A DNA stretch of 16,966 nt from Myxococcales bacterium (lineage in GTDB: Bacteria; Myxococcota_A; UBA9042). Positions within the stretch are counted from its first letter, which is position 1, and each line of letters opens with the position of its first letter. The translations under genes and the position numbers were made by a program. The stretch covers positions 1-16,966 of the forward strand of contig JBBISH010000128.1 of the NCBI GenBank assembly GCA_037441385.1. Reading direction: 5' to 3'. Below the pieces are notes generated by a model. That model saw only the letters and a program-made list of their open reading frames with translations, searched no databases and was not told the origin of the DNA. Positions 1 to 3,662 of this stretch are shown piece after piece.

Positions 1-222
1 CGCCATTTGCTGCGGAAAATCAGCCGAGTAGAGCCCATGGTAGTGATTCGCCATCACGGTGAACGCGTGGACCCTGACGCCCGTCGCGGCCTGGGCCTCG
101 GCCATCGCGCCGATCAGGTGTTCCTGAAATCCGCGATCCTCCGTGCAAAGTGAGAACTTCCCGTCCAGCGTGCGCAGCGTGACGAGGTGCAGCAAACTGG
201 GGTCGTACAGACGAATCGGCAT
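1..222 (-). CDS. HUH (Y1) tyrosine transposase, RAYT/IS200-like; 5' part only, runs off the window edge
   Basis: Manual translation from ATG 222: MPIRLYDPSLLHLVTLRTLDGKFSLCTEDRGFQEHLIGAMAEAQAATGVRVHAFTVMANHYHGLYSADFPQQMA, with no stop before base 1. It has the N-terminal H-x-V-T-x-R strand and the 'GVRVHAFTVMANHYH' HUH motif (HYH at 37..45) typical of Y1_Tnp/RAYT. GGGGA (228..232) lies 5 nt upstream of the ATG. The catalytic Tyr would be outside the window. Confidence 0.85.
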   Translation of the reverse strand, partial: MPIRLYDPSLLHLVTLRTLDGKFSLCTEDRGFQEHLIGAMAEAQAATGVRVHAFTVMANHYHGLYSADFPQQMA

Positions 223-228
223 GGCGGT

Positions 229-381
229 CCCCGCGGGCACTCCTGGCTCGCTGATCAGGTGATCGATGCGAGCGCGGGTTTTGCCGCGGGTCTGGACAAA
301 GAAAGTCATTGCCGACAGTGCACCAGGAGCCCCGTTCATCAATGAACACAATAAATTCAGATAGTAGAAATTGCCCCCCAA
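229..381. repeat. Structured non-coding repeat unit A (153 nt)
   Basis: 343..381 matches 503..541 at 33/39 positions, including identical TAGAAATTGCCCCCCAA (365..381). About 229..289 aligns with about 382..444 (gcggg...tgatca(c)gg(t/c)gatc...ccgcgg). The middle part is poorly conserved. Confidence 0.75.
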
Positions 382-541
382 CCGTGCGGGTCGGCAAGAC
401 CCGTTGATCACGGCGATCAACGCGGGTCCGGCATTCTTCCGCGGAGCCGCGCATCTGAACCTAGCTGTGCCCAAAACAGCCACGTTGGCAGAGCGGCCCG
501 GCTGAATTCAACAAATTCAGCCACTAGAAATTGCCCCCCAA
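382..541. repeat. Structured non-coding repeat unit B (160 nt), directly abutting unit A
   Basis: Hairpins: CGGGTC/GACCCG (387..403), CGTTGATC/GATCAACG (402..422), GCTGT/ACAGC (464..480), perfect GGCTGAATT/AATTCAGCC (500..522). The 17-nt core is at 525..541. Confidence 0.75.
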
Positions 542-551
542 TTGATCGGGG

Positions 552-3500
552 CTATGCGGTTCGCTTCAGCTTCATGCCGCTGAATTTGGCGAGCAGGGGC
601 GCCGCCAGCCCGAACATCGCCGGCAGCACGATGAGCGTGAGCGCGCAGGCCGAGAGGGTGCCCCCGACGATGACGGCGGCGATGGGCCGCTGAGTCTCGG
701 AGCCGATGCCGTGGCTGAGCATCGCGGGCACCAGGCCCAAGGCCGCAAGGGCGGCGGTCATCAGCACGGGTCGCAGCCGCTCCTGGCAGCCCAGGCGCAG
801 CGCCATCTCGAGCGACTGCCCGTGTTTCTGCCGCTCCAGCACGGCGGTCAGCACCAGCACGCCGTTGAGCGACGCCTGGCCGATGAGAGCGATGAAGCCG
901 ACCGCCGCCGCCACGCTCAGAGGCATGTCCAACCACGCCAGCGCCGCCACGCCGCCGATCAGGGCAAACGGCACGTTCAATAGCACCAAAGTCGCCGGCG
1001 CCAGCTGCCCAAACGCCTGGAAAAGCAGGATCAGCGTCAGCAGCAGCGCGACCGGCACCACCAGCGCCAGCCGGGCCATCGCGCGCTCCTTGTTCTCGAA
1101 CTCGCCGCCCCACTCCACTTGCACGTCGCCCGGCATCTTCACGCCGTTCTTGACCTTCTGCTGGGCCTCCGTCACAAACGAGCCCATGTCCCGGCCGCGC
1201 ACGTTCATCCGCACGCCGATGTAGCGCCGCCCATTCTCGCGATTGATCGACGCCCGGCCAAAGCCGATCTCCGTCTTCGCCAGGGCCTCCAGGGGCACGA
1301 ACGTGCCGCCCGGCACCGCGATCGGCAGCTTCCGCAGCTTCTCTACGTCGTCGCGCGCCGCCAACGGATAGCGCAGCACCACGTCGAACTTCATCTCGCC
1401 ATCCCAGAACACCCCCACCGGCGCGCCGCCCAGGGCCGCCTGCACCAGATGCTGGAAGTCCTCCATATCCAAGCCATACCGCGACAGCGCCGCCCGCGAC
1501 GGCTGCAGCTTCAGCGACGGCACCGTACCCGACTTGACCAGCCCCACGTCCGCGGCCCCCGGCACTTTCGCAATGATGTTCTTGGTCTGCTCGGCCAGCG
1601 ACTGCAGCGTCGCCATGTCGCGCCCATAGATCTTGACCGCGATCTGCCCCTGCTGACCCGAGATCGACTCGTTCACGTTGTCGCGAATCGGCTGCGAAAA
1701 ACCGATGTCGAGCCCCGGCATCTCTTGCAGGGCCTGGTTGCCGGCCCGGACCACATCTTCGATCCCTTTGAAGTTCTTGGGCCAATCCGCCGGATGCTTC
1801 AACTTGATGAACGCCTCCAGGTTGTTGCTCAGCTTGGCGTCGGTGCCGTCTTCCGGCCGGCCCAGCTGGGTCGACACCTCGTCCACCACCGGCAGCTTCT
1901 CCAGCAGCTCCGTGAACCGCGGCACCAGCGTCCGCGCCTGCGCCAGGCTCACGTTCGACGGCAGGGTCACCGTGGCATAGATCGCGCCCTCATTCAGTTC
2001 CGGCAGGAATTCGCTCCCCAATTTCGGCACAGCCAACACCGAGACCACCAGCCCGGCCGTGCTCGCGGCCAGCACGATCCACGGGTGCGCCAGCGCCCAG
2101 CTCAGCGCCGGGGTATACGCCCACTGGGCCAGCTTCAGCACAGGCGAAACCCGGTGCTTCATTGGCTTGCGCCACACCAGCGTCGCCAGCACCGGCACCA
2201 GGGTCAGCGAGAACACCAGCGCGCCCAGCAAGGCCGCCACCACTGTGTTCGACATCGGCGCAAAAATGCGGCCCTCCACGCGCTCCAGAAGAAAGATCGG
2301 CAGATATGCGGCAATGATGATCAGCAGCGCGTACACCGTCGGCTGCACCACCTCGCCCACCGCGTGGCGGATCCGGTCGCTCAACGTCCCGTGCCGTTCG
2401 GCGTGCGCGCCGTCGTGCTGACTCAAGCTGTGCACGATCGACTCGACGATCACCACCGAACCATCCACGATGATGCCAAAGTCGATCGCGCCCATACTCA
2501 ACAGATTCGCCGACATCCCGCGCAGCTTCAGGTACAGGAACGCCGTCAGCAGGCTCAACGGAATCACCGCCGCCACCACCAGCGCCGCCCGCAGATCCAG
2601 CAAGAAGATGTACAAGACGAAGACGACCAGCAGCGCGCCTTCCAACAGGTTCTTCCCCACGGTCTTCAGGGTCGTATCCACCAGCTCGGTGCGGTCGTAG
2701 AACGGCGAGATCGTCACCCCCTTGGGCAACAGCCCGCCGCCGTTGAGCTTGTCGACCTGCTCGCGCAGGCGCGCCAACACCGTGCTCGGGTTCTCGCCGC
2801 GGCGCATCAGCACGATGCCCTCAACGGCGTCGTAGTCGTGGGCCCGGCTCACCACGCCCTGGCGCGGCGTCCAGCCCTCGGTCACGGTCGCCACGTCGCG
2901 CACCAGCACCGGCGTGCCCTGGAACGTTGCAACCCGCGTCTCGCCCAGCTCGTCCAGCGAGTTCAACAAGCCCTCGCTGCGAATCACGATCTGCTCGTGG
3001 CCGCGCTCCAACACGCCGCCCGAAGCGTTCTGCGAGGCCTTGCGCAGCGCCGTCTCCAGATCCTCCATCGTCAGCGAAAACGCCGCGAGCTGCGCCGGCT
3101 TGGGCTCCACGTGCACCTCGCGCACCAGCCCGCCGTAGCTCACCACGTCGGCCACGCCTTGCACGCGCATCAATTGCGGCCGCACCGTCCACTCTTGCAG
3201 CGTCCGCAGTTTCAACGGGTCGTCTTGCGCGCCCTTCAGCGTGTAGCGGTAGATCTCGCCGATCGGCGTCGCCAGCGGGCCCAACTGCGGCACCGCCCCC
3301 TCGGGCAACTCGGCCGCCCGCAACCGCTCCAGCACCTGGGCGCGAGCAAAAAGCACGTCCGTGTTGTCGTCAAAGGTCAGCGTCACGTACGACAAGCCGA
3401 ACAAGCTGATGTTGCGCAGCCGCGTCATCCCCGGCGCGCCATTCAGCGCGCGCTCCAACGGCAGACCGATCTGGCGCTCCACTTCTTCGGACGGCTGGCC

Positions 3501-3662
3501 CTCGAACAGCGTGATGATGTTCACCTGCGTGTCGGTCGGGTCCGGGAAGGCCTCCACCGGCAGGCCGCGGAAGGCCTGGAAGCCCGCCACCGCGACGATG
3601 AGCGTAAAGACGACCACCGCCATGCGGTTGCGCAGCGAAAAGGCGACAAGGTGCTCGAACAT
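552..3662 (-). CDS. czcA: CzcA/CusA-family heavy-metal efflux RND permease (CzcA-like)
   Basis: 1036 aa with RND topology; 'EAFPDPTDTQV', TM4 'GAIDFGIIVDGSVVIVES' (CzcA-type DFG..D..E), 'GSEFLPELNEG', 'RLRPVLMTA', 'GSETQRPIA'. Confidence 0.95.
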   Translation of the reverse strand: MFEHLVAFSLRNRMAVVVFTLIVAVAGFQAFRGLPVEAFPDPTDTQVNIITLFEGQPSEEVERQIGLPLERALNGAPGMTRLRNISLFGLSYVTLTFDDNTDVLFARAQVLERLRAAELPEGAVPQLGPLATPIGEIYRYTLKGAQDDPLKLRTLQEWTVRPQLMRVQGVADVVSYGGLVREVHVEPKPAQLAAFSLTMEDLETALRKASQNASGGVLERGHEQIVIRSEGLLNSLDELGETRVATFQGTPVLVRDVATVTEGWTPRQGVVSRAHDYDAVEGIVLMRRGENPSTVLARLREQVDKLNGGGLLPKGVTISPFYDRTELVDTTLKTVGKNLLEGALLVVFVLYIFLLDLRAALVVAAVIPLSLLTAFLYLKLRGMSANLLSMGAIDFGIIVDGSVVIVESIVHSLSQHDGAHAERHGTLSDRIRHAVGEVVQPTVYALLIIIAAYLPIFLLERVEGRIFAPMSNTVVAALLGALVFSLTLVPVLATLVWRKPMKHRVSPVLKLAQWAYTPALSWALAHPWIVLAASTAGLVVSVLAVPKLGSEFLPELNEGAIYATVTLPSNVSLAQARTLVPRFTELLEKLPVVDEVSTQLGRPEDGTDAKLSNNLEAFIKLKHPADWPKNFKGIEDVVRAGNQALQEMPGLDIGFSQPIRDNVNESISGQQGQIAVKIYGRDMATLQSLAEQTKNIIAKVPGAADVGLVKSGTVPSLKLQPSRAALSRYGLDMEDFQHLVQAALGGAPVGVFWDGEMKFDVVLRYPLAARDDVEKLRKLPIAVPGGTFVPLEALAKTEIGFGRASINRENGRRYIGVRMNVRGRDMGSFVTEAQQKVKNGVKMPGDVQVEWGGEFENKERAMARLALVVPVALLLTLILLFQAFGQLAPATLVLLNVPFALIGGVAALAWLDMPLSVAAAVGFIALIGQASLNGVLVLTAVLERQKHGQSLEMALRLGCQERLRPVLMTAALAALGLVPAMLSHGIGSETQRPIAAVIVGGTLSACALTLIVLPAMFGLAAPLLAKFSGMKLKRTA

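What the first reader, a model, noticed from the sequence alone, without database searches (positions are those of the whole stretch)
229..541. Two abutting, diverged 153/160-nt structured units upstream of the HUH gene: candidate nuclease-plus-array system
Seen: the 329-nt gap between the czcA stop and the HUH start is almost entirely unit B (382..541) plus unit A (229..381), head to tail, with only 10 nt and 6 nt left over. Both ends of each unit are conserved (33/39 identity at 343..381 vs 503..541; a shared GATC-hairpin/CCGCGG block at the other end), while the central 50-60 nt or so are largely unalignable. This conserved-variable-conserved layout is not a CRISPR array and does not resemble classical REP doublets (short inverted pairs with GTAG-type guides). 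Inference: these could be stacked element ends from repeated insertion at the same site, non-autonomous substrates of the HUH enzyme, or an array of ncRNA/ssDNA units whose variable middle carries specificity. Only two units are visible, so the evidence is limited.
Basis: partly seen in the sequence, partly recalled or inferred. Interest (0 to 1): 0.82.

Follow-up and report, generated by a model that had tools for sequence, protein, structure and literature searches.

The report
Stacked ends of a tyrosine-transposase element
The two units are two copies, one intact and one decayed, of the left end of a multi-copy mobile element that encodes a RAYT-like single-strand DNA transposase; both start with an 18-base end sequence scattered over 100 times through this myxobacterial genome, so this is a new family of a known kind of system, not a nuclease-plus-array system.

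Summary
Window 229-381 (A) and 382-541 (B) are abutting, co-oriented units. Their ends are alike (shuffle z 7.3 and 4.2) and their middles are not (z about 0).

On the minus strand each unit opens with TTGGGGGGCAATTTCTA(C/G). The 13-nt core of this head occurs 160 times in the genome, against 2 for a reversed control. It heads nine left ends of the HUH gene at contig ends, and in inverted form seven right ends. It also bounds ten inverted pairs 207-289 nt apart, eight direct tandem pairs, and many solo copies.

In a sister genome the complete 335-aa gene is bracketed by inverted heads. The right-hand head contains the stop codon, and two more head copies lie inside the coding sequence.

The protein folds like E. 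coli RAYT (PDB 4ER8, Z 14.8). It lacks the class-2 Y---NP motif and scores below the curated RAYT cut-off.

Unit A is the working left end plus the gene's leader. Unit B is a decayed left end, closer to another copy's leader than to A.

The variable middles match nothing else, and the unit count varies between 1 and 2, so no array or guide function is supported.

Verdict: a REPtron/TIRtron-type system of an undescribed, IS-like myxobacterial subfamily. The scan has noted similar systems in other myxobacterial genomes. Interest is moderate.

The parts
1..222 (-). 5' part (74 codons) of the Y1/HUH transposase gene, cut by the contig start. It contains the HYH motif.
   Evidence: It is 97% identical to the 131-aa copy on G000:C69 and 88% identical to the complete 335-aa orthologue in G007.
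223..381 (-). Unit A plus 6 nt: the left end and leader of this gene copy.
   Evidence: It aligns along its whole length with 12 other left ends from G000 and G007. Similarity to the other copies stops at window 381-384. The unitig graph branches at 383 (loose end).
364..381 (-). 18-nt head of unit A (TTGGGGGGCAATTTCTAC on the minus strand).
   Evidence: The 16-mer GGGGGGCAWTTTCTAC occurs 89 times in G000, against 0 for the reversed control.
347..363 (-). Semi-conserved subterminal segment after the head (consensus YNNKYGAAATYAYWG). It can pair with CAWTTTC of the head.
   Evidence: Position counts over 105 copies. The short stem is complete in 43/105 copies. DNA fold.
223..308 (-). Conserved leader: an AT-rich box, two CCGCGG sites, and two GATC sites (253-256, 261-264) in a long imperfect hairpin that ends at the ribosome-binding region and ATG.
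   Evidence: Nearly invariant in the left-end alignment wherever the contig reaches it. Fold. No sigma-70-like promoter or terminator pattern was found.
382..541 (-). Unit B: a decayed left end with a leader remnant, truncated 9 nt before the position where its ATG would be.
   Evidence: Collinear alignment with three left ends. Its part beyond nt 45 matches the C69-type leader best (score 37, z 7.9, 0/500), against score 22 (z 2.8) for the adjacent unit A.
524..541 (-). 18-nt head of unit B (TTGGGGGGCAATTTCTAG on the minus strand).
502..520 (-). Perfect 7-bp hairpin (CTGAATT/AATTCAG, 5-nt loop) just after the head of unit B.
   Evidence: Read from the sequence. DNA fold.
552..3662 (-). Flanking RND efflux gene (the 'czcA' of the finding). 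It is context, not part of the element; its stop codon lies 10 nt before unit B.
   Evidence: Pfam ACR_tran, 834.6 bits. The related RND loci in G005 and G007 carry no head downstream.

Best explanation
The two units are stacked left ends of a mobile element that encodes a RAYT-like Y1 (HUH) tyrosine transposase of about 335 aa.

The element has four parts:
- An 18-nt head (TTGGGGGGCAWTTTCTAC) with a loosely conserved 20-nt subterminal segment.
- A variable spacer, then an ~85-nt conserved leader that holds the gene's expression signals.
- The gene, whose disordered linker encodes two further head-like copies.
- An inverted head at the far end that contains the stop codon.

Unit A is the working left end and leader of this gene copy. 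Unit B is the relic of another left end of the same family. It keeps the head, the subterminal segment and a degraded leader, and stops 9 nt short of where its start codon would be.

The same head marks more than 100 mostly extragenic units in this genome. These include ~207-289-nt elements with inverted heads, direct tandem pairs, and solos.

Inferred, not shown: the enzyme recognises the head and subterminal region, probably on single-stranded DNA as RAYT and IS200/IS605 enzymes do, and nicks and rejoins at its outer edge. That would move both its own gene and the gene-less units. Stacking would arise when one copy lands beside, or recombines with, the end of another.
For: Shown:

(1) The head is a genome-wide repeat. 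The 13-nt core with up to 1 mismatch gives 160 hits against 2 for the reversed control. The exact 16-mer gives 89 against 0.

(2) Nine left ends (C128, C69, C173, C55, C77, C14, C211, C220, C201) and seven right ends (C2, C21, C22, C23, C42, C139, C178) lie at contig ends, and the gene's middle is unassembled. In the probable source run, the unitig over window 1-194 has depth 81.6 and the one over 212-290 has 80.9, against 16.2 and 15.1 for the flank. This is a rough guide only, since contig depth is not a copy number.

(3) The complete orthologue, G007:C345, has two heads upstream of the gene. Two inverted head-like copies lie inside the coding sequence. The stop codon TAG lies inside the inverted terminal head. 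The whole element fills the gap between two unrelated ORFs.

(4) Genes of at least 60% identity are bracketed by inverted heads on G007 C345, C68, C58, C220 and C572 and on G005:C81. On G007:C99 the left head has 2 mismatches, and on C315 the left side is beyond the contig end.

(5) Among 41 genomes the 13-mer is frequent only in G000 (101), G007 (39) and G005 (8), and occurs at most 3 times elsewhere. These three are the genomes with homologues of at least 60% identity.

(6) The protein has an invariant HYH motif, Tyr121 and Gln125 in 14 homologues. The model has pLDDT 84. The best structural match is 4ER8 (RAYT with REP DNA): Z 14.8, rmsd 2.4 A, 152 of 165 residues aligned; the next is IS608 TnpA at Z 9.1. 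Foldseek gives the same order. dN/dS is 0.12 over 131 codons.

(7) Unit B is collinear with left ends and closest to the C69-type leader.

(8) Heads are mostly extragenic: 38/160 lie in crude coding frames, against 66% of random positions.

(9) In a closed myxobacterial MAG chromosome (G041), two near-identical subfamilies of distant homologues (19 loci aligned) are ~1.4-kb units bounded by a hairpin at both ends. Extra end copies are stacked beside four of them.
Against: - No activity, excision junction or empty/filled pair was seen. The one orthologous comparison that gave an approximately empty site was too diverged to fix the element borders.
- No target-site duplication or fixed flanking tetranucleotide was seen in the flanks listed and aligned. 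The position counts show only mild base preferences just before the head.
- The head is not a palindrome and the short stem is present in only 43/105 copies, with no covariation at the A/T position. Recognition as a hairpin is therefore unproven.
- The second units at the other two-unit loci (C69, C173, C55, G007:C345) show no leader similarity to their unit A. 'Relic left end' is therefore shown only for this window's unit B.
- The right end of this particular copy cannot be assigned, because the contig ends inside the gene.
- The protein scores below the curated NCBIfam RAYT cut-off (39.8 against 80) and at or just below the Pfam Y1_Tnp cut-off (22-23.5 against 23).
Confidence: 0.8

Rival explanations
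1. A nuclease-plus-array system: the units are a short array of ncRNA or ssDNA modules, the conserved ends are handles, and the variable middles carry target specificity for the HUH enzyme.
For: The conserved-variable-conserved layout is real. The middles differ between copies of the left end.
Against: - The middles match nothing in the genome apart from paralogous left ends.
- They match nothing in 50,697 phage or 72,556 plasmid records.
- The unit count is 1 in 8 and 2 in 5 of 13 left ends.
- The 'handle' occurs more than 100 times in unrelated contexts.
- There is no Rfam family and no PADLOC family for the protein.
Confidence: 0.03
2. A simple local tandem duplication of unit A that has since decayed, with no relation to element insertion.
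For: The units abut, share orientation, have nearly the same length (160 and 159 nt to the ATG) and are collinear.
Against: - Beyond the head, unit B is more like the leader on contig C69 (score 37, z 7.9) and that of G007:C345 (26, z 4.7) than its neighbour A (22, z 2.8).
- Second units at four other loci are unrelated to their unit A beyond the head.
- Direct tandem pairs of head-bearing units also occur away from the gene, at C6 (twice), C28 and C80.
Confidence: 0.1
3. The 18-mer belongs to something else, and the HUH gene is only a frequent neighbour or passenger. Candidates are the inverted repeats of a DDE-type transposon or MITE family, or a host protein-binding or regulatory site.
For: - The heads act as true terminal inverted repeats on the ~207-289-nt elements.
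- There is no hairpin in most copies.
- 73 of 110 terminal-type heads have no partner within 400 nt.
Against: - The stop codon of the gene lies inside the head, and head copies lie inside its coding sequence.
- Head variants change with the paralogue clade: GGCGGG, GCCGGG or GGTGGG beside the 60-64% paralogues.
- Abundance tracks close homologues.
- The only inverted pair 0.4-3 kb apart that I found (C49) encloses a lipoprotein-like ORF and no transposase. I did not scan the whole genome for other transposases.
Confidence: 0.07

Closest known systems
TIRtrons / TIRYTs (TIR-associated tyrosine transposases; Di Nocera et al. 2013, PMC3733652, passages read; equated with subclass 2.1 by Quentin et al. 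2018, PMC6006769, passages read)
   Same: - A RAYT-like Y1 gene flanked by terminal inverted repeats rather than palindromic REPs.
- The repeats start with a G-run.
- A repeat can overlap the gene's 3' end.
- The same repeats form moderately abundant families elsewhere in the genome, as singles, dimers or clusters.
   Different: - The published repeat motif GGGGWSAS is not matched exactly; here it is GGGGGGCA.
- The protein has Y-x-x-x-Q-A instead of the class-2 Y---NP.
- No HTH domain was found by Pfam.
- The gene is multi-copy (about 7-9 ends each side), with near-identical bodies.
- The head family is larger (over 100 copies) and includes head-like copies inside the coding sequence.
REPtrons: RAYT/TnpA_REP with REP/BIME/REPIN (E. 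coli, Pseudomonas; PDB 4ER8; Bertels et al. 2017, PMC5581495, passages read)
   Same: - It is the best structural match (Z 14.8).
- The gene is flanked by inverted copies of a 16-18-mer that is highly over-represented and mostly extragenic.
- The repeat and gene are lineage-specific and occur together.
- Some loci are shared between sister species: G000:C14 with G007:C99, and G000:C201 with G007:C68.
- Clusters of several repeat units lie beside the gene.
   Different: - REPs are palindromes with a GTAG/GTGG foot at the stem base. Here the conserved part is a non-palindromic 18-mer, and GTAG would lie in the loop or at the stem edge.
- RAYTs are typically single-copy; this gene is multi-copy.
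- The score is below the curated RAYT HMM cut-off.
IS200/IS605 family (IS608, ISDra2 TnpA)
   Same: - The same Y1 HUH fold.
- A Y-x-x-x-Q motif.
- A multi-copy, IS-like gene.
- Distant homologues in G041 carry subterminal hairpins at both ends of a ~1.4-kb unit.
- No target duplication was seen.
   Different: - The protein is about 335 aa, not about 130-150.
- The ends are inverted repeats.
- More than 100 gene-less copies exist.
- There is no tnpB.
Class 3 and subclass 2.3 of Quentin et al. 2018 (Table 1 and class sections read)
   Same: - With class 3: atypical flanking structures, high-copy repeats, several related genes per genome, and traits between an IS and a REPtron.
- With subclass 2.3: NHYH and WE motifs, a median length of 325 aa, and several copies per genome.
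   Different: - Class 3 has NHVH, YV[VI]xEQ and a median of 178 aa.
- Subclass 2.3 has YVDLNP and no associated repeats.
- Neither fits. I could not compare sequences directly with their members.

Membership tests
RAYT / REPtron | Y1 HUH fold with an HuH motif and a catalytic Tyr | tested here: met
   HYH, Y121 and Q125 are invariant in 14 homologues. 4ER8 matches at Z 14.8, rmsd 2.4 A, 152/165 residues aligned. Foldseek E 3.6e-6.
RAYT / REPtron | Reaches the curated NCBIfam REP_Tyr_transpos cut-off | tested here: not met
   39.8 bits against a cut-off of 80, E 3.8e-10, covering profile positions 4-143 of 146.
RAYT / REPtron | Class-2 Tyr motif Y---NP (Quentin 2018) | tested here: not met
   The motif is RY(V/I)xxQA in all 14 aligned homologues. 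The motif definition comes from PMC6006769.
RAYT / REPtron | Gene flanked by inverted copies of a repeat that is highly abundant and extragenic in the same genome | tested here: met
RAYT / REPtron | The repeat is a palindromic hairpin with a GT[AG]G foot 0-2 nt from a 7-20-bp stem | tested here: not met
   GTAG is present on the complement of the head. But a 4-bp core stem is complete in only 43/105 copies, stems of 5 or more in 38/105 (11.8 expected from shuffles), and GTAG lies in the loop or at the stem edge.
RAYT / REPtron | Single or low copy number with diverged copies | tested here: not met
   Nine left ends and seven right ends lie at contig ends, and the gene body is collapsed. Unitig depth is about 81 against about 16.
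TIRtron / TIRYT | RAYT-like gene flanked by terminal inverted repeats instead of REPs | tested here: met
   L012 has heads at 1172 and 1342 (+) and 2522 (-) around the gene at 1501-2508. The same holds at five further loci.
TIRtron / TIRYT | Repeat motif GGGGWSAS | tested here: not met
   The head reads GGGGGGCAW. There is a G-run, but no register fits the consensus quoted in PMC3733652.
TIRtron / TIRYT | Repeat copies elsewhere as singles, dimers or clusters | tested here: met
   Of 110 terminal-type heads there are 8 direct tandem pairs, 10 convergent pairs, 1 divergent pair and 73 solos.
TIRtron / TIRYT (subclass 2.1) | C-terminal HTH-type domain (Bac_DnaA_C, HTH_23 or HTH_28) | tested here: inconclusive
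   Pfam lists only Y1_Tnp at E up to 1. The C-terminal part was not folded or searched on its own.
IS200/IS605 | Pfam Y1_Tnp at or above the gathering score | tested here: inconclusive
   22.0 bits (335 aa) and 23.5 bits (131 aa) against a cut-off of 23.
IS200/IS605 | Subterminal hairpins, no terminal inverted repeats, insertion 3' of a fixed tetra- or pentanucleotide | tested here: not met
   The ends are 18-bp inverted repeats. No fixed flank was seen in the flanks listed, and the position counts show only mild base preferences.
CRISPR-like or guide-RNA array | Regular repeats separating unique spacers that match foreign or target DNA | tested here: not met
   There are one or two units only. 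The middles have no matches. No Rfam hit.

The most novel reading that the evidence does not exclude
These elements are a still-active, autonomous insertion-sequence family run by a RAYT-fold enzyme. It would be a living intermediate between IS200/IS605 and the domesticated RAYTs. It would use an 18-bp non-palindromic terminal repeat read as sequence rather than as a hairpin, keep copies of that site inside its own coding sequence for self-regulation or as alternative ends, and prefer to land beside existing ends. That preference would build stacked ends such as B-A and tandem arrays, and would spawn gene-less derivatives.
Probability: 0.25. Interest if true: 0.55.

Novelty: new variant of a known kind. 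Interest (0 to 1): 0.36.

Why it matters
How RAYT-type enzymes spread their repeats is still argued from a few proteobacterial cases, and the repeat-flanked relatives (TIRYTs) have had no experimental work that I found.

This myxobacterial family offers both states in one genome. The transposase gene is itself multi-copy and bounded by the same 18-mer that heads more than 100 gene-less units. The head is short, sequence-defined and easy to synthesise.

The full-length architecture is also large and unclassified, with 503 representative clusters at E <= 1e-30. That makes it a practical system for asking whether such enzymes read sequence or structure, and how stacked ends and tandem units arise.

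For genome annotation, it explains many contig breaks and 'hypothetical protein' calls in these MAGs.

Tried and rejected
- Rfam scan of window 1-900 at E <= 1: no match.
- Sigma-70 promoter and intrinsic-terminator pattern scans of window 1-700: none. The promoter role of the leader is therefore inferred from conservation only.
- Sequence search of the PDB with the 335-aa protein: no hit at E <= 1.
- PADLOC: none.
- Phage and plasmid collections with both units: no match.
- The 18-mer in viral contigs gave 2 single hits. In metagenome contigs it gave 27 single hits. 23 of those 27 lie in contigs with no family features downstream of the head (most of them low-GC) and look like chance. Four, from one metagenome, are true relatives.
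- GATC as a target signal: 12 of 13 HUH left ends have GATC within about 35 nt upstream (read). Across all 110 terminal-type heads it is not enriched (19% against 17% background). Its spacing varies from 2 to 33 nt, so I dropped it as a general target.
- Empty-site search for three ~280-nt elements in G007 and G005. One is shared with G007, one has its flanks on different contigs, and one is an approximately empty site too diverged to place the borders.
- No RNA holder was listed among the sequencing runs. Only contigs were available, so no starts, ends or excision junctions could be read. One contig skips window 296-363 with only 20 nt on one side, and I take it for a paralogous left end.
- Covariation in the head hairpin: none at the A/T position.
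- Class 3 and subclass 2.3 of Quentin et al. were considered as homes and not adopted (see Closest known systems).
- The word-index homologue search found only 13 proteins. The exhaustive profile search was needed to see the family.
- Literature searches listed no paper linking RAYT or tyrosine transposases with Myxococcota. This covers only the rows listed by those two searches. Supplementary tables of PMC6006769 and PMC3733652 were not opened and may list myxobacterial members.

Full report
**What is there**

The window is the first 16,966 bases of contig C128 of a 221-contig, 6.6-Mb genome bin that is 90.9% complete. Earlier notes of this scan call it an uncultured myxobacterium.

On the minus strand an RND efflux gene (552-3662; Pfam ACR_tran, 834.6 bits) is followed by a 329-nt gap. 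After the gap comes the start of an HUH gene (ATG at 222), which runs off the contig.

The 39-nt blocks are 33/39 identical. In 1000 dinucleotide shuffles:
- the first 39 nt score z 7.3 (0/1000 reach the observed score);
- the last ~60 nt score z 4.2 (0/1000);
- the middles score z -0.04 (520/1000).

**The key to the units is their first 17-18 bases on the gene strand**

Both units begin TTGGGGGGCAATTTCTA(C/G).
- This 17-mer occurs 25 times exactly, and 157 times with up to three mismatches, in the genome.
- The 13-nt core with up to one mismatch occurs 160 times, against 2 for the reversed pattern.
- The 16-mer GGGGGGCAWTTTCTAC occurs 89 times, against 0.
- Over 105 copies, positions 3-18 are almost invariant apart from one A/T position. 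The next ~20 nt are loosely conserved.
- Heads avoid coding sequence: 38 of 160 lie in crude coding frames, against 66% of random positions.

**The head marks both ends of the HUH gene**

Unit A plus the gene start recurs at eight other contig ends: C69, C173, C55, C77, C14, C211, C220 and C201. Similarity stops at window 381-384.

Seven further contig ends (C2, C21, C22, C23, C42, C139, C178) carry the gene's 3' part, ending in an inverted head. The middle of the gene is not assembled.

In contigs of the run that probably gave this bin, the unitigs over window 1-194 and 212-290 have depths of 81.6 and 80.9. The flank has 16.2 and 15.1. Contig depth is not a copy number, but the figure agrees with several near-identical copies.

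A sister genome, G007, holds complete copies. On its contig C345 (locus L012) the layout is as follows:
- Heads start at 1172 and 1342, followed by the ATG at 1501.
- The ORF encodes 335 aa.
- Two inverted head-like copies ending in CTGA lie inside the coding sequence (2150-2205) and encode SENAPQ and SEIAPQ.
- The stop codon TAG (2506-2508) lies inside the inverted terminal head.
- The whole ~1.35-kb unit fills the space between two unrelated ORFs.

Inverted heads also bracket the genes on G007 C68, C58, C220 and C572 and on G005:C81. On G007:C99 the left head has two mismatches, and on C315 the left side lies beyond the contig end. The 60-64% paralogues carry head variants (GGCGGG, GCCGGG or GGTGGG in place of GGGGGG).

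Among 41 related genomes, 27 have some homologue. The 13-mer is frequent only in G000 (101), G007 (39) and G005 (8), and occurs at most 3 times elsewhere. These three are the genomes with homologues of 60% identity or more.

**The protein**
- The N-terminal part matches Pfam Y1_Tnp at the threshold (22-23.5 bits against 23).
- The best NCBIfam hit is the REP-associated tyrosine transposase model, at 39.8 bits against a cut-off of 80.
- Fourteen homologues keep HYH, Tyr121 and Gln125, and a HPxxWxGASS stretch after the core.
- An AlphaFold model (pLDDT 84, pTM 0.80) is closest to E. coli RAYT bound to a REP hairpin. 4ER8 matches at Z 14.8, rmsd 2.4 A, 152 of 165 residues; IS608 TnpA is next at Z 9.1. 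Foldseek gives the same order.
- The only long disordered stretch (217-243) is the one encoded by the internal head copies.
- dN/dS between the G000:C69 and G007:C345 copies is 0.12 over 131 codons.
- An exhaustive profile search finds 503 representative clusters at E <= 1e-30, most matching over the full ~310-340 aa.
- Named relatives are uncultured Myxococcota MAGs and a few others.

**What units A and B are**

Thirteen left ends align from the head to the ATG. Each has the head, a subterminal segment, a variable middle, and an ~85-nt near-invariant leader. The leader holds an AT-rich box, two CCGCGG sites and two GATC sites in a long imperfect hairpin. Unit A is this window's copy.

Unit B aligns collinearly with left ends and stops 9 nt before the ATG position. 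Beyond its first 45 nt, its local alignment scores are:

| Compared with | Score | z | Shuffles reaching it |
|---|---|---|---|
| C69-type leader | 37 | 7.9 | 0/500 |
| G007:C345 leader | 26 | 4.7 | 0/500 |
| Its neighbour, unit A | 22 | 2.8 | 9/500 |

So B is a decayed left end of the same family and not a fresh copy of A.

A second head-bearing unit lies upstream of 4 of 9 left ends in G000 (C128, C69, C173, C55) and 1 of 4 in G007. Those other second units share only the head region with their unit A.

The related RND loci in G005 and G007 have no head downstream. This locus was therefore colonised in the G000 lineage, or cleared in the others.

**The wider family in this genome**

The 110 terminal-type heads group as follows:
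- 10 convergent pairs 207-289 nt apart;
- 8 direct tandem pairs, four at HUH left ends and four elsewhere (C6 twice with a 115-nt period, C28 and C80);
- 1 divergent pair;
- 73 heads with no partner within 400 nt.

Eight convergent-pair elements align from head to head and carry one or two internal CTGA-type copies, the same layout as the gene-bearing element. Their inner ~130 nt is a separate repeat that is also common in G007 and G005 without heads.

Stacking of ends recurs in a distant branch. In a closed MAG chromosome (G041), two near-identical subfamilies (19 loci aligned) are ~1.4-kb units with a palindromic hairpin at both ends. Four of them have an extra hairpin 46-270 nt outside one end.

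**How it probably works**

Shown: the anatomy, the co-occurrence of head and gene, the fold, purifying selection, multi-copy status, and the relic nature of unit B.

Inferred from what is established for IS608, ISDra2 and E. coli TnpA_REP (background passages of PMC6006769):
- The enzyme binds the end region on single-stranded DNA and cuts and rejoins through Tyr121.
- This moves the gene-bearing unit and the gene-less ones.

Whether the head is read as sequence or as a hairpin is open. A 4-bp stem between CAWTTTC and a downstream GAAAT is complete in only 43/105 copies, and about 15 copies carry a direct repeat instead.

The stacked B-A arrangement is most simply a second arrival, or a recombination, next to an older end. 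I could not test this.

**Comparison with what is known**

Di Nocera et al. 2013 (PMC3733652, passages read) described RAYT-like genes flanked by terminal inverted repeats (TIRtrons, TIRYTs). These include repeats that overlap the gene end and that form families of singles, dimers and clusters.

Quentin et al. 2018 (PMC6006769; abstract, class sections and Table 1 read) classified the superfamily.

The present family shares the TIRtron layout and the RAYT fold but fits no listed subclass:
- its Tyr motif is Y-x-x-x-Q-A, not Y---NP;
- its length and its NHYH and WE motifs recall subclass 2.3, which has no repeats;
- class 3 is shorter, with other motifs.

Unlike typical RAYTs (Bertels et al. 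2017, PMC5581495, passages read), the gene is multi-copy.

Earlier notes of this scan report similar HUH-plus-repeat systems in other myxobacterial genomes. I did not test those.

**Verdict**

The array reading is not supported, and the stacked-ends reading is. This is a new, IS-like variant of the REPtron/TIRtron kind. It is useful and tidy, but not a new kind of system.

Noticed in passing
G000:C112:10233-10514 and seven similar elements (C14, C7, C63, C4, C18, C113, C178): There are ~260-290-nt elements bounded by inverted 18-nt heads, with one or two internal CTGA-type head copies. Their inner ~130 nt is a separate repeat that occurs many times in G007 and G005 without heads, so these look like composite elements. 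That inner repeat may be the 132-bp repeat noted earlier in this genome.
   Followed up: partly
G000:C6:104232-104462 (minus strand): A direct tandem array of head-bearing units with a 115-nt period lies far from any HUH gene. It has two near-identical units and a third diverged one.
   Followed up: partly
G000:C80:11184-18991: Six heads lie in the same orientation within 8 kb. Four of them head a shared longer repeat of more than 150 nt (GGGCGCCTCGCCGCTGCCGCGG...). Its other end and its content were not examined.
   Followed up: no
window 253-256 and 261-264; same positions in all left ends that reach them: Two GATC sites 4 nt apart sit in the conserved leader hairpin just upstream of the start codon. 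This recalls methylation-coupled control of some transposase genes. Whether this organism methylates GATC was not checked.
   Followed up: no
L012:2150-2205 (G007:C345); G000:C21:64413 and 64491: Two head-like copies lie inside the transposase coding sequence, in the one long disordered linker of the model (residues 217-243). The 'ENA' they encode is kept even in 50% paralogues.
   Followed up: partly
G000:C26:55486-56499: A single assembled paralogue (337 aa, 58% identical) has no standard head. Twice upstream it has a related ...ATGTCGGA(T/C)ATTTTCTGAAC motif, and it keeps the leader's CCGCGG/GATC block.
   Followed up: partly
G000:C14 / G007:C99 and G000:C201 / G007:C68: The element sits at orthologous sites in the two species, yet six G000 left ends share one near-identical variable middle that the G007 orthologues lack. 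This suggests gene conversion among copies, or repeated re-insertion at the same sites.
   Followed up: no
G041 (closed MAG chromosome holding L050-L075): At least 19 copies of two near-identical subfamilies of a distant homologue (about 25% identity) are present. Each is a ~1.4-kb unit with a palindromic hairpin at both ends, and there are few solo hairpins. This is a plainly IS-like branch of the family.
   Followed up: partly
window 20-483 (minus strand): The reading frame of the HUH gene stays open upstream through unit A into unit B (ORFs 20..454 and 1..483). One database homologue is annotated with such an N-terminal extension (P0002). The conserved start is the ATG at 222.
   Followed up: partly
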